DNA of 64,000 nucleotides, from contig JALOCB010000003.1 in NCBI GenBank assembly GCA_023227985.1, positions 5,260 through 69,259 on the forward strand, in the 5' to 3' direction. Each line of letters begins with the position of its first letter. Positions within the stretch are counted from its first letter, which is position 1. The translations under genes were made by a program, and so were the position numbers. Below, piece after piece: positions 4 to 21,925 of this stretch. The notes under the pieces were generated by a model that ran no database searches, was not told where the DNA came from, and saw only the letters and a list, made by a program, of their open reading frames with translations. The DNA comes from Candidatus Omnitrophota bacterium (lineage in GTDB: Bacteria > Omnitrophota > Gorgyraeia > Gygaellales > Profunditerraquicolaceae).

Positions 4-3000
4 ATGATCCAGCGTCTGGCTATTAATAATGGTACTGCCCACGGCAATAACTATGACGCTGACGGTAAACTTATTGAAACACAGATGAATTTGAAGATGA
101 CCGCGGCGATCGCCGAAGTTATTAAGGCGTATGGTATACAGATAGTCCAGCACGGCGTGACCGGAACGCCTATTAAAAATCTCCAGGCATTGCGTAATGT
201 CGGGATCAGGGCCGCTCATGTCGGGACCAATTGGCAGAATATTATTTGGGAAACTTTAGTTGCCCAGGCGCAGGCGGGTAATTCGACCGCTAAGTCCATA
301 GTAAACCGGATGATCGATGCGACTATCGCTAAGACTGCGGACGTGGAGAAGAAGTATAAAGTATCCGGCCGAAGCGCAGAAGCCAAGGATAGCGTTTATG
401 TCCCGGGAAAAGACAAGAACCTGGACAAGCTGATCGGTAAAGAATTAAAGATGGTATTAGGTGTTTTCAACGACGAGTTGGTTGCTCTTCCTGATGACTT
501 GATTGCCAAGATTGATGAGGCCACCGAAAAATCCGCTACCGAGCATATGCTGGGTTTCGGTTCTGACGGAACAGCCCAGATGGTAAAGGATGATTATGCG
601 GTTCAGGGGTTGGTTTATCCTGAAGATTTCTCCTCGATCAAAGGATTATATGCCTTTAAGGCGCTCGAAGGAACGGATAAGACGATTATGTGTTGTAATA
701 TACGTTCGCCTCTAAGCATTAGGGGTATTATGCGCGCGGCCCAAAAAACAGGCAGCGTGGTTATTTTTCAGCAGGCAATGAGCGAATTCGATTATACCTG
801 GAAAGGCGGCTATGCCCCGGAGAATGCGGCTAAGCTTGCCCGTAATATCAAAGAAGCTGCAAAAAAAGAAAATTTCCACGATTTCATGATTAAGGGCGAT
901 CATCTTACGGTTAAAGTTGATGATGCTTTCTTGAAGGATAAGGCGGCGCAGGATGCTGTTGCTGTGGTATTTGAGAAAATATTGGATGAACAGGATGTTT
1001 CCAAGCGGGAAGCATTGTTCAACGCTGCATCCAAAGACGAAGTTCTTTTAGCCAATGCCGGCGTAGCTAAAGCAATGAAAGCGGTAAATAAGGCTATGAC
1101 CTTGATCAAAGAAGAAGTTGCTTCGGATTTCACTGTTTTTGCTTTAGACGCGTCATTTATGCCTACCAGGCTTAATGTCCTGGTCAGCGCTTACCTGGCG
1201 GGGTTTATTCCCCAGGATGCAGGTTTGGAAGCTGAAGTTGGCGAGATTGGCGGAAAAGAAAATTCCACGGTTGCCGACGCGTTGGAATTCATTACCGGTA
1301 TCAGGTTCAAGGAAGAGGTTGTGGTCAGCCAGGGAGTGAAATATTCTCAGCTGGTCGGTCCGAGAAGGATCGGTGTTCTTACCGGCGGCGGACCTGCTTC
1401 CGGGCATAACGCGGTGATCGCGGCAATGGTCCGCGAAGCGGAGCAGCGGGGGATCGAGATCGTGGCTATCCCTGAAGGTTGGGCTGGTTTGACCAAGGAT
1501 GAAGTAGCCGCGCAAGCCAAGGTTATAACTATTAAAGATGTGGAAAAGTGGGGGAAGAAAGGCGGCACAATGCTGGGGACCAGCCGCACCAATCCGTATA
1601 AGAAAGAAGGGGACGCCCAGAAGGTTTGGGATAATATCCAGAAGTTAAAGCTTGACGGTCTGGTAACTCTCGGCGGTGATGATACCAACGGGGTTACTTC
1701 CAAACTGCAAAAAGAACATCCGGATTACTTATTCATTGGTCTGCCTAAGACCATGGATAATGATATAGCGCTTCCGGAGAGTGACGCGCAGACCTATGGT
1801 TTTGACAGCTTTACCGTCAAGGCCTCTGAATCGTTCGAGGCTGGAAAGATTGACGCGCAATCTACCCATAGGATACTGATCGCTGAAGTTTTTGGAAGGG
1901 CGGCCGGATTCGTTTCTGCGCGTATCGGGGCCAATATAGGGGCTACCCGCACACTGATCCCTGAAGAATTGGTTGATCTTTCAAAGTTAGTCGAGGATCT
2001 GCGCAGCTATTATAAGAATAATAAATACGGGGTTGTTGTGGTTGCCGAAGGGGCAAGCGTCAATGTTGATGGTTTCAAACTGGATGAAAACGGGGAATTG
2101 ACAGTTGTTAAGCCCGAAGACCCGGATGTAAAATTGTTGCTGGCCGCATTTAAGAGCGATCCTATGGCCAAAGCGGCTTTTATCAAGTCTATGAAAGCCG
2201 AGATGGATGATTTTGGCCACAAAAAACTGGAGAATGTCGGTCTTATTGTCGCAGCTGTGGTAAAAACCGCGTTAAAGGCGGATAAGATCGATATTAGCTT
2301 CGCCGGTAAAGCGGATTATCTTTTTCGCTCCGCCGATGTTTCCAAATTGGACGCTGAAATGACCACTATGCTGGGGAAGGCCGCTGTGGAGAAGATCGCG
2401 GATATCCAGAATGATCAGTTGCTTTACGCTTACAAGGGGCAGATTAAATCCATACCGTTTGCCCGGGAATTAGGCGGAAGGGTCCTGGATTACAAAGGCG
2501 CCCATAAAGATGAATATATGTTGGCCAACCTGGCGCTTATTGATGAAAAAACTGAAATAACGCTTTCGGATGCATCGGTTAATGAGGACTTGTTCCAGGC
2601 AGCGGTTAGAAACTTAAAAGGACTTAACCCGGGCGAATTAATGACTCTGAGTTTTTCGGAGATGAAGGTTTTGTTATGGAAGCTTAATAGCCTTGATCAA
2701 GAAACCGGGGACAATCAGGAAGTAGTTCAGTCTGTCAGAAGGATTCTGCATAGGATAGACGACAGGCAGATAGAACAGGTCAAGAAATTTGCCAATATCG
2801 GCGTGTTTGCCCGAGAAAATACTGCGTATAACCTGGAATCAGTGCTTAAGGATGACAATATCCTGGTTATCGCGGCTAACGCGCTTATTTTTCGCGCCGG
2901 AGCCTTTGCCGAATTCTATCATAATTGGGAGCCGGGAGTTAACCTCGCGGCGATCAAGTCTATGAAAGGCGGCAAAGAAGCTACTGCCGAGGAATTTGTC

Positions 3001-4767
3001 CGGCAGAACAGCCGTTATAACGGACCTTTTAGCCCGTATCAGTTAAAAGGTTTGCGCGTGCTTAAGGATGAACGCCGGGTGATTGATGGTGTCGCTGTTA
3101 ATTTCATTTTCGTGCCCGCGGATAAGAATATCGGAAGGCCGGATATCAAGATACCATATTTCGGCCCGGAAACAACTAACCAGCAGGTGCTTGATACTAT
3201 GAAGGCCTTAGGTTTAGAGTTGGATGTCATGGCCTATTACGGCCCGACCAGCGAAACGGTTCAGCCCAGGATATTCAAGGAGTTCATTGAGGCTGGATTG
3301 CCTGTTGTAGCAGCTTCTCCGGTCAACACCGACGCTGTAAAAAATATGCTCAAAGCTAAGTTTCAGCAGGAAGGTGTTGCGGATGATATGCTGGATGAAG
3401 CGGTGAGTAAGGCTTTTAAGGAAGGTTTGTATTCCGCTACCCGTAAAGAAATCGGCGCGGATGTCAAGATCGTGGATACTTTAAGCTGCACTTCCAATGC
3501 CATGATTTCGGTTATTAAAGCAATGTGGGATAAGTTCGGTATCGATCATGGTACCGGCCTGACTATTCATTCCCAGACTGATTCCAATGAGACTTTCCCG
3601 ATGAAAAGCGGCAGGGCCAGGGATCCCCTGGATATCGCCCGCGGCGATTCCATCCGTGACAACATAATCCCTGCTTCAACCGGCGCAAAAAAGAACCTCT
3701 TTAAGATGATCCCGGAATTAAAAGGCAGGTTCGAGATCACCGCTGTTCGCACCGGTACTGTTTCGGCTTCGACCTGGGAGATGACCATGGACCTTAAGAC
3801 TGAAGTGACCAGGGATGATGTCCTTGCGGCTTTAAAGGATTTCGCCCTGAATAAGACCGACGGGGTGGTGAAATTTCACGAAGGAGACCCGGACAGGAAT
3901 CCCGGGCCTCTGGACGCCAACGCCGTGGTCGGCTGGAATAATGTTTCTATTATCGACAGTTTATTGATCAATGTTCTGGATAATAAGAAAACAGTGACTA
4001 TTAAAGGTTTGTATGATAACCAATCAGCGGCGCCGAATCAAATGGTTTCTAAATGGTCGCCGTGGATGGTTGACGGTTTAAGGCTGCGCCAGATAGTCGG
4101 CGAAAAGAACAGCAAAAAGCTGAACAAAGCCGAAGCTGTAGCGTATGCCAAACTCAACGCCGGTTATGCCGGCCTGCTTAAAGCCGTAAGCGCGGTAAAA
4201 ACCAGCGGAGCTCTGGTGGTCAGCGCTGACGTGGTCTTAAAGAACGCCGGGACGCTTTCATCGCTCAAAGCCTTGAAAGAATCAGGCGCTCTTATTGAGA
4301 TCATTGTCCAGGCGAACAACAAGGCTGTCGCTGATAAAATGGTATCAATGGGCGTTGAACAATTCGCGAGCATTCAGTTCAAGCAGGTTAACGCGATAGT
4401 AGAAGAGTTGAATACCAAAGGTATAACTGATGAAAGAATAGTAGTGCTTAAGACCAAAGCTGAATCGAAAGAAGAAGTCAAGAATACCGTCAAGGTGGTC
4501 AATGTCGGCGAAGCTAAAGTCGCCGAATCTTCTGTTAATGCCATGTCGATAGCAGTGGCAAAGGCAGTAACCACCGTGTTGCAGGATAATACGGAGGTTG
4601 TTGATCAATATCAGCAGATGGCGAAGAATTACGCCGAAGCTAACGACGTCGAGCTAAGCAAACTGGAAGATCTGACCAGCCAGATCTCGGATATGCCGCT
4701 GGTTAAGGTGAGCGAAGAAGTGGTCAAGGCTCAGGTTACTTACGAAGAAACTGTAAACAAGATCTAA
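4..4767 (+). CDS. Giant multidomain glycolytic fusion protein, 5'-partial (>1587 aa): class II fructose-bisphosphate aldolase segments + PPi-type 6-phosphofructokinase + GAPDH + conserved C-terminal module
   Basis: ORF is open from window position 4, so the gene continues upstream. aa 1-90 match the class II FBA C-terminal half (GTAHGN..., IVQHGVTGTP vs FVFHGGSGST). aa ~200-450 match the class II FBA N-terminal/catalytic half (TIMCCNIRS..VVIFQQA; IKGDHL = HxDH; EVGEIGGKEN). aa ~455-850 match PFK (RRIGVLTGGGPASGHNAVI; GGDDTNG; PKTMDNDI; FGRAAG). aa ~930-1270 match GAPDH (catalytic SCTSNAM, HSQT, NIIPASTGAAK). aa ~1395-1587 form a module shared with the next gene. Confidence 0.8.
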   Translation: MIQRLAINNGTAHGNNYDADGKLIETQMNLKMTAAIAEVIKAYGIQIVQHGVTGTPIKNLQALRNVGIRAAHVGTNWQNIIWETLVAQAQAGNSTAKSIVNRMIDATIAKTADVEKKYKVSGRSAEAKDSVYVPGKDKNLDKLIGKELKMVLGVFNDELVALPDDLIAKIDEATEKSATEHMLGFGSDGTAQMVKDDYAVQGLVYPEDFSSIKGLYAFKALEGTDKTIMCCNIRSPLSIRGIMRAAQKTGSVVIFQQAMSEFDYTWKGGYAPENAAKLARNIKEAAKKENFHDFMIKGDHLTVKVDDAFLKDKAAQDAVAVVFEKILDEQDVSKREALFNAASKDEVLLANAGVAKAMKAVNKAMTLIKEEVASDFTVFALDASFMPTRLNVLVSAYLAGFIPQDAGLEAEVGEIGGKENSTVADALEFITGIRFKEEVVVSQGVKYSQLVGPRRIGVLTGGGPASGHNAVIAAMVREAEQRGIEIVAIPEGWAGLTKDEVAAQAKVITIKDVEKWGKKGGTMLGTSRTNPYKKEGDAQKVWDNIQKLKLDGLVTLGGDDTNGVTSKLQKEHPDYLFIGLPKTMDNDIALPESDAQTYGFDSFTVKASESFEAGKIDAQSTHRILIAEVFGRAAGFVSARIGANIGATRTLIPEELVDLSKLVEDLRSYYKNNKYGVVVVAEGASVNVDGFKLDENGELTVVKPEDPDVKLLLAAFKSDPMAKAAFIKSMKAEMDDFGHKKLENVGLIVAAVVKTALKADKIDISFAGKADYLFRSADVSKLDAEMTTMLGKAAVEKIADIQNDQLLYAYKGQIKSIPFARELGGRVLDYKGAHKDEYMLANLALIDEKTEITLSDASVNEDLFQAAVRNLKGLNPGELMTLSFSEMKVLLWKLNSLDQETGDNQEVVQSVRRILHRIDDRQIEQVKKFANIGVFARENTAYNLESVLKDDNILVIAANALIFRAGAFAEFYHNWEPGVNLAAIKSMKGGKEATAEEFVRQNSRYNGPFSPYQLKGLRVLKDERRVIDGVAVNFIFVPADKNIGRPDIKIPYFGPETTNQQVLDTMKALGLELDVMAYYGPTSETVQPRIFKEFIEAGLPVVAASPVNTDAVKNMLKAKFQQEGVADDMLDEAVSKAFKEGLYSATRKEIGADVKIVDTLSCTSNAMISVIKAMWDKFGIDHGTGLTIHSQTDSNETFPMKSGRARDPLDIARGDSIRDNIIPASTGAKKNLFKMIPELKGRFEITAVRTGTVSASTWEMTMDLKTEVTRDDVLAALKDFALNKTDGVVKFHEGDPDRNPGPLDANAVVGWNNVSIIDSLLINVLDNKKTVTIKGLYDNQSAAPNQMVSKWSPWMVDGLRLRQIVGEKNSKKLNKAEAVAYAKLNAGYAGLLKAVSAVKTSGALVVSADVVLKNAGTLSSLKALKESGALIEIIVQANNKAVADKMVSMGVEQFASIQFKQVNAIVEELNTKGITDERIVVLKTKAESKEEVKNTVKVVNVGEAKVAESSVNAMSIAVAKAVTTVLQDNTEVVDQYQQMAKNYAEANDVELSKLEDLTSQISDMPLVKVSEEVVKAQVTYEETVNKI
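4190..4767 (+). repeat. Copy A of a duplicated ~570-nt segment encoding the shared C-terminal module (paired with 12130..12698)
   Basis: The last ~60 nt (gatctgaccagccagatctcggatatgccgctggttaaggtgagcgaagaagtggtcaaggctcaggttacttacgaagaaactgtaaacaagatctaa) is about 80% identical to the last ~60 nt of the next gene (gacctgaccagccagatctcggagatacccatggccaaggtcagcgaagaagtcgctaaggcgcaggccacttatgaggagactataagcaagatataa). Protein-level similarity extends ~190 aa upstream (ALVVSADVVLKNAGTL... vs ALVVSANAVLNNAGTL...). Confidence 0.7.
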
Positions 4768-4773
4768 CATTCT

Positions 4774-4828
4774 CAAGACCCGGTCTTGCATCCCAATGAG
4801 TCCTAATGGGTTGCAAGACCGGGTCTTG
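4774..4828. repeat. Paired palindromic motif CAAGACCCGGTCTTG ... CAAGACCGGGTCTTG. It forms a ~22-bp stem hairpin 7 nt after the stop of giant gene 1.
   Basis: caagacccggtcttgca-tcccaatgagtcctaatggg-ttgcaagaccgggtcttg. The arms are reverse complements, and each 15-mer is itself a near-palindrome. No U-tract follows. Confidence 0.75.
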
Positions 4829-4925
4829 AACATGTCTTTATATGAATAAGATAAATCCGTTTCAATTTAAAAACCGCAACAGGCAGAAGTTGTAATTTAA
4901 TTCAAATCATCAACCGGAGGGAAAA

Positions 4926-7900
4926 ATGTTCGTAAGGTTATCCCAAAACAACCTGTTCAGGAAGATCGTCGGCATTCTTATTCTTTTACAATTTTCAGCC
5001 GGTTTTGCCGTGATTAGGGGTTATGCTGCTCCCGGAAATTTGCGGCCTGCCGCCGTCAAACAGGATGGTTCCCGGTCCGGGACTATCCAGAATTCGCTTG
5101 ACGCGGCCAGCCTGGATAAGGTTATAAAAACCCCGGTCATTCATAAGGACGGCGGTATAACCGGCCAGGATGTTTTTAAGAATATCCTTGGCGAATACCG
5201 TGTTTCCTCCACGATAAACAATCTCGCTTTCGGGACGTTCGTCCAGGGGCAGATCGACCTTAGTTCGGTTCAGAACCGGGAAGCGCTGGTCAATAATTTC
5301 GGGGAGATTAAGAGCAAAGATCGTTTTTTTACCCTTGAATACGCGGGAATTCCGCTTGCCCTGGTCAAGAAGGCCGAAACCGGAGAAATTACCGTCAAGA
5401 AAGTAGTCGAAGACATTGCTTCGATCCCGCTCAACATCCTTTCCGACAATGCCGAAAAGCTCAAAACCGAAGGTGTTACTTCCTCGGATATCCTGGTCCG
5501 CGATTTTCTTATCCTTGAAAAAAGGTCGCGTATCGACATCACTCAGTGCATGACCGTAGAGTTTGGCGAGCTGCGCGACTACGTATACAATCTGGCTAAA
5601 AATGTCGGCCAGGAAAAGGCACTGGAGATGGCATCGGCGTTTGCGGGTAAGGCTACCGTTGACGAGGCTATGGCGGAAGTCGGCGAGAAAGCTAAGCAGT
5701 TAGGCCGCGACCAAGCGAAGGACACAGGTCTGGCGCTGGCCGGCGGTAAGGGTTTGAGCCTTTCGGTCATGAGCCGCGTGGTTGACGTGCCGCCTGGTTT
5801 GAACGTTACTACTACCGCGTATTTTAAGTTCGTCAAAGATAATAAACAGGTCTGGGAGAAGATCTTTAATGAGCTGCAGACCTTGGATACTATGGATGAC
5901 CAGAAGCGCGACGTTGTCACTTCGGAGATCCGCGATGTCATTAAAAGCGCGCCGATACCCGAAGACATCAAGGCTGAGGTAACAGCAATGTACCACCAGC
6001 TAAGCGTTATCCGTTTTCTTGCCGGTAAACCTTCGCCCGCTCCGGTGGCTGTCCGCTCTTCCGGCACCAAAGAGGATATTCACGTTAAAACCTGGCTGCC
6101 GGTTTCCACCGGTTCCCAGGCCGGCCAGTCGGATACATTCCTTAATGTTAAGGGCGAACGGGATGTCCTGGATAAATTACGCGCCGATTGGGCGTCTTTA
6201 TTTACCGATCGCGCGGTCAGCTACCGTGATGACGCCACCTTCTTGCAGTTCTCTGGAGCCATCGATTTTAACGGTAAGACTTCTCAGGATGTCTATTGGG
6301 GGATCGTGGCGAAGCTTCGGGAATACTCCAAGAAACTGGATAAGCCTGAATATAACGTGTACGCTGACTTAATGAGTAAAGTCACCAGCCCTAACCCTGG
6401 GTCGGTGAGCCTGATGAACGCCATGGAGGAGATCCTGAGACAGGAATCGAATCCGGAGATGTCCAATGCCCTTGCCGTTCTGAAGAAGAAAGCAGAGGAG
6501 GTTGTGCATCCCGAACAGATCGGTATCGACGTTGTGATCATGCAGATGGCTAAGAGTTATCTTGCCGGCGTGCTTTTTACCGTCAATCCGGCGACCAAGA
6601 TGGCCGGTGTGGCCCAGTCGTTATACAAGTCATGGTATATGGGTGATGATTCGCTCGTGTACCGCGACGCGAAGACCGATATTATCCAGGGAACCAGGCC
6701 CATAGTGGTGAGCTTTGATGTGGCCTTCGGCTACGGCGAGAACGTAGTCGGCGGCAAGGTAAACCCGGACAAGTTCATTATGGGCACCTACGACGGCGAG
6801 AGCTGGTTTGTTATCGAGAAAAGCAAAGGCAATAAACTTATTCAGATGAAGGACGTGGAAGAAGTCATCGATCTCCTCAAAGACAAGATATCGGAAAAGG
6901 GCCAGCGGCAGCTCGCTATGACCGTGAAAGACGCGATCGCGTATGATGAGGTCGGCAAGCGGATCAACGGCATTATGGCGACCAAACTCTACGGTATCAA
7001 GTATCTTAAGGCGCTTGAGGGTAAAGAGGAAAGCGATAAAGACAAGAAGGCCCGCGTACAGGCTATCGCCAATGAGATTGCCGACATGGTCAAGAATAAG
7101 GTTTCCGAGGATGAAGTTGTCGCGTTCATCAAGGGTAACTTTGAGGTCGTTAACCGGAAGGGCTATAAAGGCATTCAGGAAATGGCGCTTTCGGGAGTGG
7201 TCAGGGAAGTGTTTGAGAAAGTCCAACAGGCCCAGGCTGAGACCGACCGGGGTATGTTTAAACTCTCAAAGCAGCTCGGCGATATGGGAAAGGCCGATAC
7301 GCTTATCCATATGATCAAGGAGGTTTGGGAGAATAAGGAATTTACTCTTTCCGACCGCCAGGCGATTCTTGACAAACTGAACCTTACCAACCAGGAATTG
7401 CGTAATATGAGTTACCTTATCCGCGCGCTGGTGGATAATAGCTTTACTTCAAATTATGAGACTACTTTAACCCACCAGGATACCTTTACTATGACCGATG
7501 ATCAGGCCCAGTATGTGGCGCGTATGGGTTGGGCGATCACCGAATATTATAAGGATGCCCGAGATATAGAGTATGCCATCGAGATAGATAAAACCGCTTC
7601 TTCCGACAAAGCGGTGAGGCTTTACGTTGTGGACGACCTGGGCAATGTCCAGGGAATGGACAATAATGGCAACCTGGTAACGGTGAAGTCCGAAAAGGAT
7701 AAAGCGCGTATAAAAGAAGCGAAGCTGCGCCTGTATAACGTGCAGGCCCGTCCGTATACCGCGGAATACTTGAAGGTGGATGTAATGCGCGCCCGGACCG
7801 AAGCGGATGAAAAGTGGCTTGAGGAGAATTCTCCTAAAGCGATTGCCAGCGGGACTAAGGGAGAGAACGCGACGCAGGGTTATGTGCTGGTGTTCGATCC

Positions 7901-10900
7901 TAACAAAGACGTTGCCTGGCACGCGGACCAGATCCGTCGTTTGAAAGCCGGAGATTTTACTGCGGAGGAAAAAGCCCAGATCATGGCTATGGGGTTTAAT
8001 CCCGAAGAGTATGGTTCAGGCAAAGAAAAGCAATTGTCGGTTATTCTTTATCTGCTTGAAGCTGACCCGAATCATGATCCGATCATGCGCCTGGTTGATT
8101 CGGTTGTTACTATCCGCGGCGGCGATACCTGCCACGCGGCTATCTTTTGCCGTGAACAAGGGATCCCTGCGGTCACCGGCGCGGGCAAGGTTATACTCAA
8201 CGGCCAATTGCTTAAGACCGGTGACGCGGTTACCGTTGATGCTAATAACGGGAATATTTACGAAATGCCCGCTGATGCCGGAGCGCGCATTCCGATCAAC
8301 TACGTGAAATTCAAGATTAAACCGTATGGCATCCCCGGCGACGACGACAATATGCCGTATCCGGGCATCGGCCAGATCATCGCCGCGGCAAGTGCCGCTC
8401 AGCAGAACTCGCCTATTATGCTTGCGGTTGACGCGGTCGGTAACTCGCTGACCCGCGCCGAGTTCAAAGGCGAAGAGATCGGTATCAACGTTTACGCCGG
8501 CTATGGCCATTATCTTTTACAGCAGATCAAGGCCGGAAAAATAAAGGAGCCAGTGAGGGTGCGTGTCCAGGAATTGATCCAGGGCAAGGTTCCCGGCGCA
8601 AAGAGGTTCGTGGACAATATTGAAAATGTTATGGCAGGCGCTTTTGCCAAGGATCCCGCCGCGCGTTCGGCATATCGCGACATTATGGGTAAGGATTTCA
8701 ATAAGGCGGATAGCCTGCAATTGCTGGAGTTTTTCGATTTGAAGAGCGACATTGAGCTGTATGGATTGGATGCGCTTAAACTGGTAAAACAGCAGGTTGA
8801 TATTCTTGATCTCGTTCCCCGGCTTCCGGAGAATATGTATCAGACGCTTGAATATCTTTATGGCGCCACTCAGCGCAGGCTCAACTATGATTATAATATT
8901 ATCGCCGATCTTCAGAACCATCCGTGGATACTGAAAGAAGTCGATTCTAAACTCGCGGAAAAGGGTTACGCGACGTTCAAGGAATACATCACTAACGAAT
9001 TCCTGTATTTTTACAATTTGATGGGTTTTACCATTGCGCCCGATCAGACCGCCAAGAACAGGGCTTACGATTTCGCCCAGGATAAGATCCGCGGCATGCC
9101 CGGTTCCGAGGTTTTTTCCTGGCCCGGAGTCAATCCGTTGGTCGGTTTGCGCGGTACGTCGTTGGAGATCGAGGCCTTTGACGAAGATTTCGGCGGCAAT
9201 CAGCTGGTATTGGATTTTCTTTTTGATTCCGTGATCCAGGCGCACCAGAATACCGGTAACCAAGCCTGGTTTTATGTGTTTGTCCGTTCTTCCCGGGAGT
9301 TAGAGACCCTGGATAAGATCATTGAGCACAAGGCTAAGCAGACCGGGAAGCTTCCGAAAGAGATCGGGATCATGATCGAAGTTCCCAGTGCCGCTTTGGT
9401 GGCTGATGAGCTTGCTGTTAAGATGTCCGAGATGGAGAAAAAATATAAGAAGTATGGCGTTGAGCATACTTTCTTTTCCTTCGGCACTAACGACTATTCG
9501 CATCTTGCTGGTATGGGTGACCGTGAAGACCCGCGAATGAAACTCAAGATTATGGATCCCGCAGCGATCGAAGCGATCGGCGAGATGAAAGCAGCGGGGT
9601 ATTATTATGATGATGCTGCTAAAGTGCTTCCGTTGATTGATGAAGGCGCTGATGTTATGCAGCAGCTTATGGAAACAGTGGTTGCTGCGGCTAATGGTTC
9701 AAGCGTGGCTACCTCGCTTTGCGGCGAGGCGATCACCGCCCTGGTTAACCGCGGGGATTATGAGACCGCAGGCAAGATAATGGCGCTTCTGGATTCTTTC
9801 GGCGTGAGCATGATGAAAGTCCGCCTCGCAGCTTCAATGACGCGCGTGGACACCATGGCGGCTACCAAAGGGATCACCATTCCGGAAGCCGGACGTTCGA
9901 TCCTGTTCGATTTGTCTGCCGGCGAGGTGAAACAGAAAAAGGGCGTCATCAAGGGCGAGATAATATTCGTTGATAATGCCGATGATCTCGTCCCGAACGT
10001 CCTTAAAGGCCTTCAGGGTCCGGAGCTGACGAAAAAGAAAGAGATGTTCAAGCTCCAGAGCCTGGAAAACGCCCGTTCGACTATGCGTACCTTCAATAAG
10101 ATCGTAATTATCACTAAAAACCTCGTTGCTCAGCAGGAGCCTGAGTTGGTCGCGGAGATGGGCAAAGCCGCATTCAGCAAGTTTGTCAATGACGGCCTGC
10201 TTAAAGATATCGGTAATGGGCAGTATGTCTGGACGAATCTGGGTGTAAAGACGGAGAAGTTCAACCAGGAATTGACAATTCAAGGTTTCTCTGAAAAAGA
10301 ACGTAAAGCTATTGAAGGTTTGTGGCAGAAGGCCTGGGATAACAGCATTGAAGGGCTTGAGCGCCGCGGAATTGATTGGGATGATCTACAATATGCCAAG
10401 GCTATAATCGTTGATGCGGACGTTAACCTTGATGGCTGGGATGTGTTCCGCAAGGACAAGAGTATTATTCCGACCCGTATCAAGGCTACGGTCAAAGGTA
10501 TAAGCTCCCGCCGTGCGGAGTTAGAAGGGCAATTGGCAACTATAGATTACGCCGCTAAGAAGGTCTACAAGGATTTTCTCAGCGTGGAAAAGATCGCTGC
10601 CGTCCTGCGCAGTCTTCCTATCCCAGCGGAAAAGCCTATGATAACTACGCAATCGGCTGTCGCGGAGAACGCCAACAGTGTATACCAGAAGATCGGGTAT
10701 CATCCTAAGCTCCTTCTTGCCTATGAGCGGAATGCTGTGAATGAACTTGGAAAGATATTCGAGGAATATGTAGGCAAGCTGGTTGAAGAAGTTGAAAAAG
10801 TTACTCAGGAGACCGACGTTCAGAAACGCGTATGGCTTTTACAGAAACTGCAGAATAAAGTTGGCGGGCTTGCGGAACCGATGATCAAATCGTTTATGAG

Positions 10901-12698
10901 CGATGTGCTTTCCGAGGCCATGCGCACAGGTGCGGTAACGCTGCCGGATAACTGGAACAAGAAGCTTTGGGAGGCCTATCGCAGCGACCTGGAAAGCGAG
11001 ATCAGTAAGATCCTTAACGGAAAGACGGTTGAGCAGTATTTTATCGCGCAGTTCAGCGAACAGATGAAGGAAGTGCTCTCCGCCAACAAAGGGGCATTGG
11101 TTGTCCATCTTTTGGGAAGCCTCAACTGTGTTGATTTCTTTAATATGAAAGGCGGTTTCCTGGTTGAACAGGTCAATCCCAACCCTGATTACGGCATTCT
11201 TGGAGCGGCGCGCGCAATAGGGGATATGTGGGAGATAAACCGCATGGAATTGTCCGCTTTTAAGGCGGTATGGGATAATCTGCCGGTTGACCAGCGCGGT
11301 AATTTTGGCCTGCAGATCACCAATCTCAAAGGCACCCAGTCCGGCGCGGTGGTGATCGGCTGGCGTAATATTCTGAAACAAACCGGTATTATCCCGGGGC
11401 AAGACGGTTTGCAGGTTGGCGTCAATATCGTCACTCCGGCGGATAGCATCGCTGCGGATAAGTATTTTGAGTACTTTAATACGCTCGGAAGCGGGTTAAG
11501 TTTTATCTCATATGATGCGTTGAAGCTTGGCGCTGCCTGGGCCGGCGTGGATATTTTTTGGAAGGAATGGAGGAGGCTGGCTAAGGAAGATGAGTTGTTG
11601 AGGTTCGGCGTCATGACCGGCTGGATGGCGGAAGCCAAGGCTCTGAGGTTCGGCGGCAAAGTCCTTTCCTTTGATATTTCTGACGAAGCCAAACAGACTG
11701 ACGGCGGCGCTGAGGTTGTGCCTTACCGGGTAGTGGTGGAGAATCTCTTCCGGGGGATCATTAAGAAATATGATGCTTTGGATAACGGCCAAGCTCTTTC
11801 TCTCGAAAAAGAAGAGTTGGAGGCAATACTCTGGATCTTGAATTCTTCTCCTTTTGAGAATATGTCAAGCCCGTTTGCCGCGATCAAGAGTATGAAGAAT
11901 ATCAGGAATGTGATCGAAAGGCTCAGCGATGACCAAAAGAAGGCCCTAAGTGTACTTTCACAGGGCTTGGTTTTTGTCAATCACGGGCTGGATAAAAAGG
12001 TGGCGGCATTGCTCGTAGACAAGAAGTTGCTCGACACCGCATATGAATCCGACACGGCGGTATATAAAGGGTTGAACAGCGGTTTTGACAGCTTCGCCAA
12101 TGCCTTGAAAGAGGTTAAGAATGCCGAGGGCGCTTTAGTGGTTAGCGCAAATGCTGTGTTGAATAACGCCGGAACGCTGAGAGTCCTGAGAGAAATAAAA
12201 GAAACCGGGCTGACCTTGGAAATAATCGTCCGGGCTGATACGGAAGATCAGGTGAATAAGCTGATTGCCCTTCGGGCAGACGAAGTCGCGACTATCCAGG
12301 CCAAGCGGCTGTCAGTTGTGCTCAGCGGCTTGAAGAACGCGGGTATAACCGATGGCAAGATAGTGGTGATTAAAGGCAAAGAAGAAGTAAAAGACGCGGT
12401 AGAAGCCGGCGTAAAGGTCGTAGAGATCTCCATGCCTAAAACAGAGGAGTCCAGTATCAACTCCATGGCCTTAGTTGCGGCAAAAGCGGTAATCATAGTG
12501 TTAAATGGTGAAGAAACGGTTGCCGCGCAATACCGGGAAATGGCGGTAAAATACGCCGCAGATAACAGCGTAACCTCTGAAGAATTGGATGATCTGCAGG
12601 ACCTGACCAGCCAGATCTCGGAGATACCCATGGCCAAGGTCAGCGAAGAAGTCGCTAAGGCGCAGGCCACTTATGAGGAGACTATAAGCAAGATATAA
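4926..12698 (+). CDS. Giant 2590-aa protein: N-terminal hydrophobic anchor/signal + pyruvate phosphate dikinase/PEP synthase-like enzyme + ~900 aa unassigned region + conserved C-terminal module
   Basis: RBS ggaggg lies 6 nt upstream of the ATG. N-terminus has the hydrophobic stretch IVGILILLQFSAGFAVI followed by RGYAAPGNLRPAAVK. PPDK N-terminal domain: GGKGLSLSVM...VPPGLNVTTTAYFKFV and VAVRSSGTKED...NVKGERDVLDKLRADWASLFTDRAVSYR. Phospho-His swivel motif: RGGDTCHAAIFCREQGIPAVTG. PEP-utilising TIM barrel: IGIMIEVPSAALVADE...FFSFGTNDYSHLAGMGDRED. The C-terminal ~190 aa are closely related to the C-terminus of the previous gene. Confidence 0.8.
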   Translation: MFVRLSQNNLFRKIVGILILLQFSAGFAVIRGYAAPGNLRPAAVKQDGSRSGTIQNSLDAASLDKVIKTPVIHKDGGITGQDVFKNILGEYRVSSTINNLAFGTFVQGQIDLSSVQNREALVNNFGEIKSKDRFFTLEYAGIPLALVKKAETGEITVKKVVEDIASIPLNILSDNAEKLKTEGVTSSDILVRDFLILEKRSRIDITQCMTVEFGELRDYVYNLAKNVGQEKALEMASAFAGKATVDEAMAEVGEKAKQLGRDQAKDTGLALAGGKGLSLSVMSRVVDVPPGLNVTTTAYFKFVKDNKQVWEKIFNELQTLDTMDDQKRDVVTSEIRDVIKSAPIPEDIKAEVTAMYHQLSVIRFLAGKPSPAPVAVRSSGTKEDIHVKTWLPVSTGSQAGQSDTFLNVKGERDVLDKLRADWASLFTDRAVSYRDDATFLQFSGAIDFNGKTSQDVYWGIVAKLREYSKKLDKPEYNVYADLMSKVTSPNPGSVSLMNAMEEILRQESNPEMSNALAVLKKKAEEVVHPEQIGIDVVIMQMAKSYLAGVLFTVNPATKMAGVAQSLYKSWYMGDDSLVYRDAKTDIIQGTRPIVVSFDVAFGYGENVVGGKVNPDKFIMGTYDGESWFVIEKSKGNKLIQMKDVEEVIDLLKDKISEKGQRQLAMTVKDAIAYDEVGKRINGIMATKLYGIKYLKALEGKEESDKDKKARVQAIANEIADMVKNKVSEDEVVAFIKGNFEVVNRKGYKGIQEMALSGVVREVFEKVQQAQAETDRGMFKLSKQLGDMGKADTLIHMIKEVWENKEFTLSDRQAILDKLNLTNQELRNMSYLIRALVDNSFTSNYETTLTHQDTFTMTDDQAQYVARMGWAITEYYKDARDIEYAIEIDKTASSDKAVRLYVVDDLGNVQGMDNNGNLVTVKSEKDKARIKEAKLRLYNVQARPYTAEYLKVDVMRARTEADEKWLEENSPKAIASGTKGENATQGYVLVFDPNKDVAWHADQIRRLKAGDFTAEEKAQIMAMGFNPEEYGSGKEKQLSVILYLLEADPNHDPIMRLVDSVVTIRGGDTCHAAIFCREQGIPAVTGAGKVILNGQLLKTGDAVTVDANNGNIYEMPADAGARIPINYVKFKIKPYGIPGDDDNMPYPGIGQIIAAASAAQQNSPIMLAVDAVGNSLTRAEFKGEEIGINVYAGYGHYLLQQIKAGKIKEPVRVRVQELIQGKVPGAKRFVDNIENVMAGAFAKDPAARSAYRDIMGKDFNKADSLQLLEFFDLKSDIELYGLDALKLVKQQVDILDLVPRLPENMYQTLEYLYGATQRRLNYDYNIIADLQNHPWILKEVDSKLAEKGYATFKEYITNEFLYFYNLMGFTIAPDQTAKNRAYDFAQDKIRGMPGSEVFSWPGVNPLVGLRGTSLEIEAFDEDFGGNQLVLDFLFDSVIQAHQNTGNQAWFYVFVRSSRELETLDKIIEHKAKQTGKLPKEIGIMIEVPSAALVADELAVKMSEMEKKYKKYGVEHTFFSFGTNDYSHLAGMGDREDPRMKLKIMDPAAIEAIGEMKAAGYYYDDAAKVLPLIDEGADVMQQLMETVVAAANGSSVATSLCGEAITALVNRGDYETAGKIMALLDSFGVSMMKVRLAASMTRVDTMAATKGITIPEAGRSILFDLSAGEVKQKKGVIKGEIIFVDNADDLVPNVLKGLQGPELTKKKEMFKLQSLENARSTMRTFNKIVIITKNLVAQQEPELVAEMGKAAFSKFVNDGLLKDIGNGQYVWTNLGVKTEKFNQELTIQGFSEKERKAIEGLWQKAWDNSIEGLERRGIDWDDLQYAKAIIVDADVNLDGWDVFRKDKSIIPTRIKATVKGISSRRAELEGQLATIDYAAKKVYKDFLSVEKIAAVLRSLPIPAEKPMITTQSAVAENANSVYQKIGYHPKLLLAYERNAVNELGKIFEEYVGKLVEEVEKVTQETDVQKRVWLLQKLQNKVGGLAEPMIKSFMSDVLSEAMRTGAVTLPDNWNKKLWEAYRSDLESEISKILNGKTVEQYFIAQFSEQMKEVLSANKGALVVHLLGSLNCVDFFNMKGGFLVEQVNPNPDYGILGAARAIGDMWEINRMELSAFKAVWDNLPVDQRGNFGLQITNLKGTQSGAVVIGWRNILKQTGIIPGQDGLQVGVNIVTPADSIAADKYFEYFNTLGSGLSFISYDALKLGAAWAGVDIFWKEWRRLAKEDELLRFGVMTGWMAEAKALRFGGKVLSFDISDEAKQTDGGAEVVPYRVVVENLFRGIIKKYDALDNGQALSLEKEELEAILWILNSSPFENMSSPFAAIKSMKNIRNVIERLSDDQKKALSVLSQGLVFVNHGLDKKVAALLVDKKLLDTAYESDTAVYKGLNSGFDSFANALKEVKNAEGALVVSANAVLNNAGTLRVLREIKETGLTLEIIVRADTEDQVNKLIALRADEVATIQAKRLSVVLSGLKNAGITDGKIVVIKGKEEVKDAVEAGVKVVEISMPKTEESSINSMALVAAKAVIIVLNGEETVAAQYREMAVKYAADNSVTSEELDDLQDLTSQISEIPMAKVSEEVAKAQATYEETISKI
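12130..12698 (+). repeat. Copy B of the duplicated C-terminal-module segment (paired with 4190..4767)
   Basis: See copy A. The two copies can be aligned codon by codon. Confidence 0.7.
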
Positions 12699-12778: not shown

Positions 12779-15700
12779 ATGTCCAGGCCGTCTAAAAACA
12801 ATAGTATCTCTAAAATAATTTCCGGCGTTGTGATCGCGCAATTTATCATGAGCAGTATAGCCCTGCGCGGTTATGCCGGCACAGACAATTTAAGGCCGGC
12901 TCCGGTCAAAGATTCCGACCGGATAAGCGTTCTGGCCGATGAATTGCAGAAAGACGGCGGCAAACTGGCTGAATGGATCCATATCTTAGCGGAAAATACA
13001 ATTGTGGGCGATGCCGCTAAAGGTTCGAACGTCGGCATGGTCATACGGCTGGGAAAGCTTGTTGAAGAGAATATATCCGGGTCCATATTAGGGCATTCGG
13101 CAAACCGGAAGGCGTATATAAAGGAAGTGGGCGCTCAAATCGCTGAAGGGCTGCGTTTGACCGGAATGGAAGAAAAGGCGATCGCGGCTGCCAGCCGCAA
13201 GATAGCTTTTTCCAGATACGATAACATCATGAATCACCGGATCCAGGCGATGTTTCAAGCAGGGATCAGGGAGATCTGCCTTTGCGTAGGCAGTGATAAG
13301 GATAAGCTCACCGTTGAGGAAGAGATATCGGATGTGCTTGCGCAGTTGCAGGTGTCTTTTGCCGATGTCTCTTTGGAACAAATAAAAAAGATAATTTTCC
13401 ACGTGGCTTGGGAGCCTGCGGCGAATATCGGCACCGGTACTGCTGTCGGTCCGGAAAAGATCAAGCTGGTCCATCAGGCTATCTATGAATTCTTTGCCGA
13501 GAAGTATAATACACCCTCCGGGTATATCGGCGATGTTTGGGGGAAGTCATTGAAAATACTTTACGGCGCAAGCGTTGACGGAAAGAACGTCGACGGCATA
13601 ATGGCGGTGAAAGAGGATAAAGGCATGGCTTTGGTGCACGGCGTGTTATTCGCTTCTTCGGGTAAAAAGGCCGATGGCTTCCTGGCTGTGGCCGAGGGGG
13701 TTAGCCGCGCCGCGGAAAGGGATAACGCCCAGTATGTCTGTTTTGTCAACCTTAAGGAATTCGCCAGGGCTGAGAAAGATGAGGCTTTGACTTTTGTCGT
13801 CGAGATCGTCCGGGCCATTGCTTTAGGACGGATCGATCCCCGGCATACCATTCTGGCGATCGCTGACCAGGATGTACATCTAAAGGAGTGGCAGGACGCG
13901 ATCGTCGGCAGAAGCGTTTCGATGTCGGACGGCGGATACGCGTATGTTGAAGGAACGAACTTTAAGGACAAGAATGTGCTTTTTCGCCCGGATTATAACA
14001 CTCCGGCTTCGGTAAAGACCGATGATCAGGGTAATGTTTTGTCGATCAAAATATCCGACGCAAGCAGGATCGTTGATTCCTTCCCGGCTTTGACCAAGAT
14101 CCTGAAAGATAAGCCAAAACATGTGGTTGTCGTTGTCCATTTCGAACCTAAGGTGTTGAATCCCGCGACCGGTAAGAAAGACAAGAAAAATCTGTCTACT
14201 AAAGTCACAGCGGACAAACTTAAAGAATTGCTGCCGGCGGAATATAAAGATAAGGTAATATTCCTGGCTGATTCAGTCAATGACAATGGGATTGCCGCCG
14301 AAGCAATGCGGGCTATAGAAAGTTATACTGATTCCGAGATCATCGTATTGGAAAATATCCGTTTTGCCAAAGGCGAAAAGAAAGGTGCCCCCGAGCTTAA
14401 TGATCCTAAAGGTGTAGCTTTACGCAAACAGCTTTCAGGATTAGCGGACGAATATGTGGTGGATGCCTTGGGTAATATTCATCGCGCCCACGCATCAATG
14501 CTGCCTTTGCCCGGGGTGCATAAAGTCATGGGCAGTCTTGTGGAAAAAGAGATTAAAGTGTTCAACCGGATACTTAACCCGGCGCATCCTTATGCCGGGG
14601 TTAACGGCGGTAATAAGGTTGAAGATAAAGTGGATACCATGGATGTGTCTTTGTCGACGATGCAGGAAGGCGACGCGATCATCATCGGCGGGGCTATGGC
14701 CTACACTTTTTTAAAGGCGCAGGATCCAACATTGAAATTGGGCAAATCACTTGTTCAGGCGGATAAAGTTGATCTGGCTAAGACTATACTTGAGAAGGCC
14801 GCCCGGAAGAAGGTGCGGATAATCCTTCCAGTGGACCATCGCATCTCGGATAAACTCGCTCCCGGAGCAGCAGAATTGGTTACTGAGGGGCTGGAAGTGC
14901 CGGATGGGTACATGGCGGTAGATATCGGACCCAAGACTGAAAAAATAGTCGCCGAGGTCTTAAGTAATGCCCAGACCGCTTTTTGGAACGGCCCAATGGG
15001 CGCGTTCGAGGATGAGGCTGGTGGTTTTAATAAGGGGACTTATACGGTTGCCAGGGAACTGCAGAAAATGGGCAGGTCCGGACGCCTGGCCGGTATCGGC
15101 GGCGGGGAGACACGTATGGCAGCAATTAAGGCCGGGGTTACCGATGCTGACGGCGTGTTCATGTCCAGCGGCGGCGGTTCCACGCAGGAATATTTCGCCA
15201 AGAAAGGCAATCTCCCGGTGATCAAGAATCTGGAGAATGACGAAACCGCCCAGAAAAATCTCGTCCTCGCGGGGAAATTGGGGGTAGAACCCGCGGATCT
15301 GGCGCGTTTTGAAGCGGCAGACAGCAGTATTTATAATGCCTTGGGAGATAAACTTTTCAACGGCTATATATCTCAGGTCAGAAGGTTGCTTCCCAGGTTT
15401 TCGACAGGCCAGAAATTAAACGGCGCTCTGTCCAAAGCAGAGGTCTCTGCGGAGGTGATTAAAGATTCGCGCGGAAACAATACTGTCCGGGCAACTTTAA
15501 AGATCGGGGATATTGTTACTGTCGGCGAAGTCCCTGCAGGCGCTTCCAAAGGGGCAGCTGAGGCTTTTGCTTTTCCGCCGAAGGAAATAGATAGGGCGAT
15601 CGCCAACGTGGCGAAGATCCAGGAGATACTTAAGAACAGCGGCCTGGATATAAGCAAACACAGCGATCTGCGCAAGACGGAACAATTGATCATTGCCGCG

Positions 15701-18701: not shown

Positions 18702-18704
18702 AAT

Positions 18705-18738
18705 ATCTTTACAGCAGCGCGGTTTTTGTTATAATAAA
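18705..18738 (+). promoter_or_regulatory. Candidate sigma70 promoter (TTTACA - 16 nt spacer - TATAAT) upstream of the PilZ gene
   Basis: tttacagcagcgcggtttttgttataat, in an AT-rich intergenic region. Confidence 0.3.
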
Positions 18739-18826
18739 AGCGAACGATAATAAGCCACGGCTATATCTTTTTATCTTTAAAAAAGGTTTTAAAAGTGAGA
18801 AGATATGGCCTTGTTTTTTACTATAA

Positions 18827-19549: not shown

Positions 19550-19679
19550 TCTTGAGCTCAAGATCCCCACAGTAATAAAAGCCTTGACCAGGCAATTAAC
19601 CTGTGTTAAATTCGAATATTGTCTTCATTAGCCATTTCTGTAATATTCTGTTATCTCGTTCATATTTAGGAGGGGAATA

Positions 19680-20996: not shown

Positions 20997-21006
20997 GGTT
21001 TAGCCA

Positions 21007-21921: not shown

Positions 21922-21925
21922 AAAA

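What the first reader, a model, noticed from the sequence alone, without database searches (positions are those of the whole stretch)
4190..4767. Conserved ~190-aa C-terminal module shared by giant genes 1 and 2, ~80% identical at nucleotide level
The last ~190 aa of gene 1 and gene 2 align throughout (ALVVSADVVLKNAGTL...EDLTSQISDMPLVKVSEEVVKAQVTYEETVNKI vs ALVVSANAVLNNAGTL...QDLTSQISEIPMAKVSEEVAKAQATYEETISKI). The 3' ends are near-identical in DNA, which implies recent duplication or gene conversion. A common C-terminal module on different enzyme fusions could be a docking or oligomerisation domain that assembles the megaproteins into one complex. Gene 3 has a different C-terminus.
Basis: seen in the sequence. 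Interest (0 to 1): 0.7.

Follow-up and report, generated by a model that had tools for sequence, protein, structure and literature searches.

The report
Shared tail domain on glycolytic megaproteins
Three neighbouring giant genes of an uncultured Omnitrophota bacterium, each a fusion of several sugar-breakdown enzymes, all end in the same previously undescribed ~200-residue domain that looks like a disabled phosphatase and most likely serves to dock or sort these proteins rather than to catalyse anything.

Summary
The similarity is real, but it is a protein-level similarity and it is old. The tails of gene 1 and gene 2 align over 224 aa at 45-46% identity. DNA identity is 59%, not ~80%; only the last 30 codons reach 79%. 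There is no recent duplication.

Gene 3 does not have a different C-terminus. It carries a divergent copy of the same domain (profile-profile probability 98%, E 1.8e-13; same order of secondary-structure elements).

An exhaustive search found 95 cluster representatives. Nearly all carry the domain at the extreme C-terminus of proteins of up to about 2,500 aa. In the full-length members scanned, it follows glycolytic or gluconeogenic enzyme fusions. Most full-length members also share an N-terminal Sec-type leader with a D-N/H-L-R-P motif. Most named members are Omnitrophota MAGs; two are labelled Deltaproteobacteria.

The operon is syntenic in five independent loci. Four of the five independent genomes carry both domain subtypes.

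Best reading: a non-catalytic docking or sorting handle. No binding was tested.

The parts
4093..4764 (+). Type-1 C-terminal module of gene 1 (residues 1364-1587): two N-terminal helices, a five-stranded HAD-like alpha/beta core, then helices, a small hairpin (PLVKV) and a terminal helix ending ...YEETVNKI.
12012..12695 (+). Type-1 C-terminal module of gene 2 (residues 2363-2590), ending ...YEETISKI.
   Evidence: 46% identity to the gene 1 module. Family HMM E 5.9e-70.
16655..17299 (+). Type-2 (divergent) C-terminal module of gene 3 (last 215 residues), ending ...EEFVGKV.
4..4767 (+). Gene 1 (5'-truncated by the window; 1683 aa in the near-identical contig L001). Contains class II aldolase, PFK (GGDDT motif) and GAPDH (SCTSN), then the module.
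   Evidence: Pfam. L001 gene table. Motifs.
4926..12698 (+). Gene 2 (2590 aa): leader, PEP synthase/PPDK-like enzyme (catalytic His in GGDTCHAA), about 700 aa without any Pfam match, then the module.
   Evidence: Pfam and NCBIfam. Motif.
12779..17302 (+). Gene 3 (1507 aa): leader, TIM, PGK and enolase, then the type-2 module. A 99%-identical protein is in NCBI as 'MAG: phosphoglycerate kinase [Candidatus Omnitrophota bacterium]'.
   Evidence: Pfam. Homologue search.
4926..5156 (+). N-terminal leader of gene 2 (residues 1-77): basic n-region, hydrophobic stretch, RGYA, NLRPAAVK motif, KDGG.
   Evidence: Read from the translation. Family-wide motif statistics.
12779..12961 (+). N-terminal leader of gene 3 (residues 1-61) with the same RGYA / NLRPAPVK / KDGG pattern.
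   Evidence: the g2-g3 local alignment lies at the N-termini. Family statistics.
17400..18701 (+). Conserved 433-aa ORF with a signal peptide and no Pfam, NCBIfam or PDB match. It directly follows the last megaprotein gene and is a candidate partner of the system.
   Evidence: 44% identity to its L002 counterpart and 37% to its L004 counterpart. ORFs of similar size sit at the same position in L006 and at the P0104 locus. No family match.
18827..19549 (+). PilZ-domain protein, syntenic with the operon in every locus examined.
   Evidence: Pfam PF07238, E 4e-19. Synteny.

Best explanation
The segment is a previously unannotated protein domain of about 190-225 aa. It derives from, or converges on, the HAD-phosphatase Rossmannoid fold and has lost the catalytic aspartates.

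It serves as the common C-terminal 'handle' of a class of Omnitrophota megaproteins that are fusions of glycolytic or gluconeogenic enzymes. The same proteins also share an N-terminal Sec-type leader carrying a D-N/H-L-R-P motif.

I propose that the handle is a protein-protein interaction module. It would hold the separately encoded polypeptides of one pathway together, or tie them to a common partner such as the conserved 433-aa ORF downstream, so that the enzymes work as one assembly.

Two paralogous subtypes exist. Type 1 sits on the aldolase/PFK/GAPDH and PPDK polypeptides. Type 2 sits on the TIM/PGK polypeptide. They normally occur together in one operon, which suggests heterotypic pairing or distinct positions in the assembly.

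Shown:
- homology of the three tails;
- the fold;
- loss of the HAD catalytic motif;
- strict terminal position;
- independence from the cargo;
- lineage restriction;
- synteny.

Inferred: that the domain binds anything at all, and what it binds.
For: 1. All three co-directional megaprotein genes end in the domain, and no other ORF in the 64 kb has it.
2. An exhaustive HMM search of 1.84 billion representatives gave 95 hits at E<=1e-3, 72 of them at E<=1e-10. In nearly all, the match runs to the last residue of proteins up to 2543 aa long.
3. Cargo in 32 full-length members: PPDK/PEP synthase 8, PFK 7, PGK 5, GAPDH 5, class II aldolase 5, F420-oxidoreductase-like 5, enolase 2, TIM 2, plus GPI, GlpX, UDPGP and aldose epimerase. 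The domain is therefore cargo-independent but specific to this pathway.
5. The position of the HAD nucleophile motif DxDxT reads G/S-A-N/D-x-I in 67 sequences, so the domain is not a phosphatase.
6. Both subtypes co-occur in four of five independent genomes (window/L001, L002, L004, L006).
7. The domain evolves faster than the fused enzymes: 42% versus 77% identity for gene 1 orthologues and 33% versus 59% for gene 3. Its phylogeny does not follow cargo orthology. This is expected for an interaction module that co-evolves or is exchanged within a genome.
Against: - No interaction was tested.
- Conserved polar residues (N51, K62, N149, Q214, Y217) could equally line a small-molecule site.
- The co-occurring N-terminal signal peptide and the conserved hydrophobic C-terminal residue (83/97 tails end in I/V/L) would also fit a sorting signal.
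- One genome has the operon but no detectable module (L005), so the module is not indispensable to the architecture.
Confidence: 0.45

Rival explanations
1. The module is a sorting, export or anchoring domain. [quoted passage not shown]
For: - 57 of 59 full-length members examined carry a hydrophobic leader followed by a conserved D-N/H-L-R-P-x-A-A-K motif.
- The flanking charge is about +4 on the N side against +0.8 on the C side, i.e. the N-in/C-out pattern of a signal peptide.
- The module is always at the very end, and the last residue is I/V/L in 83/97 tails.
- Two preprints predict signal peptides or extracellular placement for Omnitrophota giant proteins that contain glycolytic domains.
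- A conserved signal-peptide ORF of unknown function follows the operon.
Against: - To my knowledge, no known secretion or sorting C-terminal domain has a 200-aa alpha/beta HAD-like fold.
- No recognisable secretion-system genes flank the operon in any of the loci.
- An exported ATP- and NAD-dependent pathway makes little bioenergetic sense.
- The phosphoglycerate mutase step needed between PGK and enolase is encoded only by a leaderless gene (47544-48830).
Confidence: 0.2
2. The module is a ligand-sensing regulatory pseudo-phosphatase. It would bind a phosphorylated metabolite (a sugar phosphate, PPi or Pi) at the degenerate HAD site and allosterically tune the fused enzymes.
For: - HAD-like core.
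- Nearly invariant polar residues in loops and helices flanking the core strands (N51, K62, N149), together with Q214 and Y217 of the terminal helix.
- The cargo consists exclusively of enzymes acting on phosphorylated intermediates.
Against: - The same module sits on enzymes with unrelated regulation.
- It evolves faster than the enzymes.
- W73, conserved in 56/67 members, is Q or R in the two window copies, so the putative site is not strictly kept.
- No ligand test was possible.
Confidence: 0.15
3. The similarity reflects a recent duplication or gene conversion of the 3' ends, and the shared segment has no function of its own.
For: - The last 30 codons are 79% identical in DNA, and a 20-nt run is identical.
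- The gene 1 module groups with the modules of PPDK-type genes rather than with its orthologues (bootstrap 75).
- There is a modest excess of identical codons.
Against: - Overall DNA identity is 59%.
- The domain is conserved in 95 cluster representatives (named ones mostly Omnitrophota MAGs) with invariant positions and a confident fold.
- The window/L002 orthologue pair of the gene 2 module (57% identity) is closer than the gene 1/gene 2 pair within the window (49%).
Confidence: 0.03
4. The module is an active HAD-type phosphatase or mutase that supplies a missing pathway step.
For: HAD-like fold. Phosphoglycerate mutase is absent from the fusions.
Against: - The nucleophile Asp of motif I is G or S in the family consensus, and the second Asp is mostly N.
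- Pfam HAD models match 1 of 27 members, at E 0.058.
- A separate ApgM-type mutase gene is present in the window (47544-48830).
Confidence: 0.03

Closest known systems
HAD (haloacid dehalogenase) superfamily phosphatases, e.g. MDP-1 (PDB 1u7o)
   Different: - The catalytic DxDxT motif is replaced by G/S-A-N/D-x-I.
- There is no sequence-profile match.
- Extra N-terminal helices and a C-terminal helix-hairpin-helix have no counterpart.
- Foldseek finds no hit at E<=1e-3.
Non-catalytic HAD-like domains used for assembly or peptide recognition: the C-terminal domain of vertebrate CMP-sialic acid synthetase (3ewi) and Tim50 (from memory, not tested here)
   Different: No detectable sequence relation. 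The lineage and cargo are different. The function of the present domain is untested.
Docking domains of modular polyketide synthases and NRPS (from memory)
   Same: Terminal modules on successive giant polypeptides of one pathway, encoded in one operon. N- and C-terminal elements are both conserved. The modules evolve and are exchanged independently of the catalytic parts.
   Different: PKS and NRPS docking domains are short helical peptides or small bundles, not a 200-aa alpha/beta domain. The pathway here is central carbon metabolism. No pairing has been shown.
Omnitrophota giant 'Archaeovorin' / multi-enzyme metabolic proteins (West-Roberts et al. 2023, bioRxiv 10.1101/2023.11.21.568195; bioRxiv 10.64898/2026.06.07.730766)
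   Same: Same phylum. N-terminal signal peptide or TM segment, and TIM, GPI, FBPase, aldolase and PPDK domains fused in very long polypeptides.
   Different: Those papers deal with proteins of 10,000 aa or more, and the passages I searched and read in them do not mention this C-terminal domain, the leader motif or the three-gene operon. In the exhaustive search the domain was found only in proteins of 2543 aa or less.
Fused or targeted glycolytic enzymes elsewhere: the Thermotoga PGK-TIM fusion (NCBIfam NF010569), stramenopile TPI-GAPDH with mitochondrial presequences (PMC3527533), and kinetoplastid glycosomes with PTS1/PTS2 (from memory)
   Same: Fusion of consecutive glycolytic enzymes. Terminal signals shared by a whole pathway's enzymes. 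Gene 3 matches the PGK/TIM bifunctional model.
   Different: Far larger fusions (3 or more enzymes each). A bacterial Sec-type leader plus a folded C-terminal domain, rather than a tripeptide or presequence.

Membership tests
HAD superfamily | Rossmannoid alpha/beta core with HAD topology | tested here: met
HAD superfamily | Motif I DxDx(T/V), with the nucleophilic Asp at the end of strand 1 | tested here: not met
   The consensus of 67 sequences after strand 1 is g-A-n-x-i-l-x-N-a-G. A45 is invariant, position 44 is G or S, and position 46 is N (D in gene 1).
HAD superfamily | Motif II (Ser/Thr), motif III (Lys) and motif IV (acidic pair) at the ends of strands 2 and 4 | tested here: inconclusive
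   The end of strand 2 reads V-W-A, with no Ser or Thr. A weakly conserved S-x-x-D follows strand 4, and K62 is nearly invariant. No residue-level structural alignment was available to assign equivalences.
HAD superfamily | Significant match to a HAD sequence profile (e.g. Pfam PF00702, PF13419) | tested here: not met
   PF00702 matches 1 of 27 members, at E 0.058. No family matches consistently. The PDB profile search returned 0 hits at E<=10.
Any curated protein family (Pfam-A, NCBIfam) | Score at or above the family's gathering threshold | tested here: not met
   The best match is TrkA_N at E 0.0078, 17 bits against a cut-off of 23.8.
PKS/NRPS-type docking domains | Terminal elements on successive polypeptides of one pathway | tested here: met
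   The module lies at the C-terminus of all three operon proteins. A conserved leader lies at the N-terminus of genes 2 and 3 and of the gene 1 orthologue P0006.
PKS/NRPS-type docking domains | Specific binding between the C-terminal element of one chain and a partner element of another | not testable with these tools
   Only single-chain prediction is offered.
Secretion or sorting C-terminal domains (T9SS CTD, LPXTG, PEP-CTERM and similar) | Short beta-sandwich domain, or a motif plus a TM helix, at the C-terminus | tested here: not met
   The model is a 224-aa alpha/beta domain ending in an amphipathic helix, with no C-terminal hydrophobic segment.
Secretion or sorting C-terminal domains | N-terminal Sec signal peptide on the same protein | tested here: met
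   Basic n-region, an uncharged stretch of median 22 aa, small-x-small residues, and N/C flank net charge of +4 versus +0.8 in 75 proteins. This is a rule-based reading; no dedicated predictor was available.
Cohesin-dockerin | Dockerin EF-hand repeat pair | tested here: not met
   No dockerin or cohesin Pfam hit in the three proteins or in 32 family members.

The most novel reading that the evidence does not exclude
The conserved N-terminal leader (signal peptide plus D-N/H-L-R-P motif plus KDGG) and the C-terminal HAD-like module are the two ends of an undescribed sorting-and-assembly system. This system would export a complete set of fused glycolytic enzymes across the cytoplasmic membrane and assemble them there, in the periplasm or on the cell surface. 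If so, predatory or epibiotic Omnitrophota run a second, extracytoplasmic glycolysis on material taken from prey. The type-1 and type-2 modules, or the module and the leader peptide, would provide the specific contacts.
Probability: 0.12. Interest if true: 0.9.

Novelty: new variant of a known kind. Interest (0 to 1): 0.62.

Why it matters
Glycolysis is normally carried out by separate soluble enzymes, and whether and how they form a 'metabolon' is a long-standing question. In this lineage the pathway has been hard-wired into two to five giant polypeptides. These share the same N-terminal leader and the same C-terminal folded domain.

That gives a natural, genetically defined system in which assembly or sorting of a whole central pathway can be tested with a single 200-aa domain. 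It also defines a new domain family, useful for annotating the many unannotated Omnitrophota long proteins.

The finding sharpens a puzzle already raised in the literature: why do glycolytic domains in this phylum carry export signals? If the module proves to be a specific docking unit, it could be reused to build synthetic enzyme assemblies.

Tried and rejected
- **Word-indexed homologue search, gene 1 module alone:** no hit. With a 27-sequence profile it returned only 3 fragments. The exhaustive search showed this was a limit of the word index, not absence.
- **Pattern scans of 185,579 GTDB species genomes:** two scans found no relative. A third query was rejected as too divergent. These scans rely on one or two short peptide patterns, so the negative result is weak. 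NCBI MAGs do encode the family.
- **Exact look-up of gene 3:** not on record. A 99%-identical protein is.
- **Plasmid tblastn:** no match.
- **Foldseek against the PDB:** nothing at E<=1e-3.
- **AFDB library:** not available.
- **Module-pair modelling as a single chain with a natural disordered linker from the window:**
  - with unpaired rows, MAFFT split each single module across the two halves or stacked them all on one half;
  - no valid job could be built, and I used the last structure job on the gene 3 module instead.
- **Recent gene conversion:** considered and rejected.
- **Active phosphatase:** considered and rejected.
- **An RNA or terminator element explaining the conserved 3' end:** considered and rejected. 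No terminator-like site lies in 4600-5000, and the conservation is explained at protein level.
- **P0054, the one 'multi-copy' hit:** a Cys/Thr-rich repeat protein and a spurious match.
- **Literature searches:** no description of this domain or operon.
Full report
**What is at the coordinates.** The first 17.3 kb of the window hold three co-directional genes separated by gaps of 158 and 80 nt.
- Gene 1 (4..4767) is cut by the window start. It has no upstream stop codon, and its aldolase match begins at profile position 167. It contains class II fructose-bisphosphate aldolase, phosphofructokinase and GAPDH.
- Gene 2 (4926..12698, 2590 aa) is a PEP-synthase/pyruvate-phosphate-dikinase-like enzyme followed by about 700 residues with no Pfam match.
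- Gene 3 (12779..17302, 1507 aa) is triosephosphate isomerase, phosphoglycerate kinase and enolase.

The enzyme domains score well below NCBIfam's equivalog cut-offs, so they are divergent paralogues. They nevertheless keep the signature active-site motifs GGDDT, SCTSN, GGDTCHAA, WEP..NIGTG, NGPMGAFE and SHRSGET.

**Checking the observation.** The two tails are clearly homologous.
- A local alignment covers gene 1 residues 1364-1587 and gene 2 residues 2363-2590, with 102 of 224 positions identical and one short gap.
- An HMM built from the pair finds nothing else among 684 six-frame segments of the window.

The nucleotide claim fails.
- Codon-aligned DNA identity is 59%.
- The '79%' printed by the aligner is a mean column majority, not pairwise identity.
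- Only the last 30 codons reach 79% identity.
- The longest shared run is 20 nt.
- Among identical residues, codon identity is 49% in the first 180 codons and 61% in the last 45. Codon usage predicts 36-40%, and the two regions do not differ significantly.

So this is an old, protein-level similarity and not a recent DNA copy.

**Gene 3.** Several stronger tests say otherwise.
- A family HMM of 67 sequences matches gene 3 residues 1327-1489 collinearly (profile positions 38-221 of 235, E 6.8e-5).
- The reverse profile, built from gene 3 orthologues, hits the gene 1 tail at E 3e-6.
- Profile-profile comparison gives probability 98%, E 1.8e-13 over 180 columns.
- AlphaFold2 models of the two types show the same order of helices and strands.

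I therefore call them type 1 (ending ...YEETV.KI) and type 2 (ending ...EF[MIV].K[VI]) of one domain.

**What the domain is.** It matches no Pfam or NCBIfam family and no PDB sequence, even as a profile.
- The type-1 model is confident (pLDDT 95.5, pTM 0.92). It has two N-terminal helices, a five-stranded alpha/beta core, two long helices, a small hairpin formed by the conserved P-L-V-K-V, and a terminal helix.
- Foldseek finds no hit at E<=1e-3 and lists generic Rossmann reductases at TM about 0.3. The HAD assignment is therefore a fold-level resemblance resting on one method.
- The defining HAD motif I (DxDxT, with the nucleophilic Asp after strand 1) reads G/S-A-N/D-x-I across 67 sequences. 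A45 is invariant.
- Other nearly invariant positions are N51, G53, K62, W73, N149, M151, L153, P202, L203, Q214 and Y217.

I conclude that this is a non-catalytic, HAD-like domain. It fails membership of the HAD superfamily as an enzyme family.

**Distribution.** The exhaustive HMM search of 1.84 billion cluster representatives returned 95 proteins at E<=1e-3 and 72 at E<=1e-10. Lengths reach 2543 aa, and the match runs to the last residue in nearly all of them. No protein longer than that carries the domain, although Omnitrophota are known for proteins of 10,000 to 147,000 aa.

Thirty-two full-length members carry PPDK/PEP synthase, PFK, PGK, GAPDH, aldolase, enolase, TIM, cupin-type GPI, GlpX FBPase, UDP-glucose pyrophosphorylase, aldose epimerase and an F420-oxidoreductase-like domain.

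Of the members that carry a source name, most are annotated only by their enzyme part and come from 'Candidatus Omnitrophota/Omnitrophica bacterium' MAGs. Two are labelled Deltaproteobacteria. A protein 99% identical to gene 3 is 'MAG: phosphoglycerate kinase [Candidatus Omnitrophota bacterium]', which places the window in that phylum.

**The other end of the proteins.** Genes 2 and 3 share an N-terminal pattern, and it turns out to be family-wide.
- The pattern is a basic n-region, an uncharged stretch (median 22 residues), small-x-small residues (often Y-A), then D-[NH]-L-R-[P]-x-[AS]-A-K, and about 20 residues later K-D-G-G.
- L is present in 57/57 aligned leaders, R in 51/57, and D at position -2 in 34/57.
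- Net charge is about +4 on the N side of the hydrophobic stretch and +0.8 on the C side. By the positive-inside rule this is a Sec signal peptide or an N-in/C-out anchor.
- The gene 1 orthologue P0006 has the same leader, so gene 1 very probably has it too, outside the window.

**Genomic context.** The arrangement recurs in five independent loci besides the near-identical contig L001. The order is:
- megaprotein genes;
- a 400-430-aa ORF with a signal peptide and no family match (window 17400-18701; 44% and 37% identical to its L002 and L004 counterparts);
- a PilZ protein;
- a sugar ABC transporter (absent from the stretch seen at one locus);
- a GH2 glycosidase.

The enzymes are distributed differently among the polypeptides in different genomes. 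Examples are PPDK-TIM-PGK in one chain in L006, and GPI on its own 660-aa chain in L004.

Type-1 and type-2 modules are both present in the window, L002, L004 and L006. L005 has the operon but neither type is detectable.

The window also encodes a leaderless canonical enolase (30393-31682, 39% identical to the enolase part of gene 3). It further encodes a leaderless cofactor-independent phosphoglycerate mutase (47544-48830). This is the one step between PGK and enolase that the fusions lack.

**Evolutionary behaviour.** The module diverges faster than the enzymes it is attached to. Between the window and L002, cargo versus module identity is:
- gene 1: 77% versus 42%;
- gene 3: 59% versus 33%;
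- gene 2: 65% versus 57%.

In an NJ tree the window's gene 1 module groups with the modules of PPDK-type genes (bootstrap 75). It does not group with the modules of orthologous aldolase-PFK-GAPDH genes, which form their own group (bootstrap 60). This points to an old exchange of modules between paralogues.

**Mechanism.**

*Shown.* The domain is cargo-independent, pathway-specific, strictly C-terminal and catalytically disabled. It occurs in two co-occurring subtypes, on proteins that also share an export-type leader, inside a conserved operon.

*Inferred.* The domain is an interaction handle that either joins the polypeptides of the pathway or attaches them to a common partner. I give this a probability of 0.45. 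The reasons are:
- the terminal, exchangeable, fast-evolving behaviour resembles docking modules of other multi-polypeptide assembly lines;

*Rivals.*
- A sorting or anchoring domain acting with the signal peptide (0.2).
- A ligand-sensing pseudo-phosphatase (0.15).
- A functionless product of recent duplication or gene conversion (0.03).
- An active phosphatase (0.03).

I could not test binding.

**Comparison with the literature.** West-Roberts et al. (bioRxiv 10.1101/2023.11.21.568195) note TIM, GPI, FBPase, aldolase and PPDK domains in Omnitrophota 'Archaeovorin' giant proteins. They were puzzled by the predicted extracellular location of these domains. A 2026 preprint (10.64898/2026.06.07.730766) describes 'multi-enzyme metabolic' giants and reports that 94% of the long proteins carry a signal peptide or TM helices. 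In the passages of these and the other papers I searched and read, I found no mention of this C-terminal domain, the leader motif or the three-gene glycolytic operon.

**Verdict.** The finding is real, but partly mis-measured and partly mis-read.
- The shared module exists and extends to all three genes.
- It is not a recent DNA duplicate.
- It defines a new HAD-like, non-catalytic domain family, known so far mostly from Omnitrophota MAGs, on glycolytic megaproteins.
- Its docking role is plausible but untested.

Noticed in passing
window 4926-5156 and 12779-12961; family members P0001-P0116: The megaproteins share a conserved N-terminal leader: a signal-peptide-like segment, then D-[NH]-L-R-P-x-A-A-K, then K-D-G-G about 20 residues later. 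It is present in 57 of 59 full-length members examined. The flanking charge bias predicts that the bulk of the protein is translocated.
   Followed up: partly
window 30393-31682 (-) and 47544-48830 (+): A leaderless canonical enolase (39% identical to the enolase part of gene 3) and a leaderless ApgM-type phosphoglycerate mutase lie in the same window. The mutase step is the one missing from the fusions, which matters for deciding whether the megaproteins act inside or outside the cytoplasm.
   Followed up: partly
window 17400-18701; L002 14724-15929; L004 18640-19893: A conserved 400-430-aa ORF with a signal peptide and no Pfam, NCBIfam or PDB match always follows the last megaprotein gene (44% and 37% identity across genomes). 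It is a candidate partner of the system.
   Followed up: partly
window 17400-25086; loci L002, L004, L005, L006: The downstream genes (hypothetical ORF, PilZ protein, sugar ABC transporter, GH2 glycosidase) are syntenic with the megaprotein genes in five independent loci.
   Followed up: partly
g3 residue 384 (window ~13929), g2 residues 75 and 2259; family-wide: The tripeptide D-G-G occurs 66 times in the family against 24 expected. It tends to sit after the leader and at domain junctions, e.g. between TIM and PGK in gene 3. It may be a linker or processing motif.
   Followed up: partly
loci L002, L004, L005, L006 and the P0104 locus: The same set of enzyme domains is distributed differently among two to five polypeptides in different genomes. 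Examples are PPDK-TIM-PGK in one chain, GPI alone with a module, and GlpX-aldolase. Gene fission and fusion are therefore frequent within the operon.
   Followed up: partly
L005 (GCA_028716245.1, JAQUQW010000003.1): One genome has the same operon and leaders, but neither module type is detectable at its C-termini. It may carry a third, more divergent tail, or the module may have been lost.
   Followed up: no
window 4672-4691 and 12603-12622: A 20-nt run is exactly identical in the two tails and encodes L-T-S-Q-I-S. None is expected by chance in shuffles. It could be a trace of a short conversion tract or simply shared codon preference.
   Followed up: partly
C-termini of P0001-P0116: 83 of 97 type-1 tails end in I, V or L, and 47 of 97 end in K-[IVL]. 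Type-2 tails mostly end in K-V. This superficially resembles C-terminal tripeptide signals, and no receptor is known.
   Followed up: no
window 9876-12011 (gene 2 residues ~1651-2362): About 700 residues between the PPDK-like enzyme and the module have no Pfam match at E<=1. This region is conserved in the orthologue P0053.
   Followed up: no
window 1672-1686 (gene 1 residues 557-561): The PFK domain has GGDDT rather than GGDGS. From memory, this marks pyrophosphate-dependent phosphofructokinases. Together with the PPDK-like enzyme it suggests a PPi-economising pathway.
   Followed up: no
window 34986-39767 (-): ORFs resembling Rnf complex subunits (polyferredoxin-like, membrane, and NADH-binding types). 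This identification comes from reading the translations only. It fits the fermentative or acetogenic Omnitrophota metabolism described in PMC10066038.
   Followed up: no
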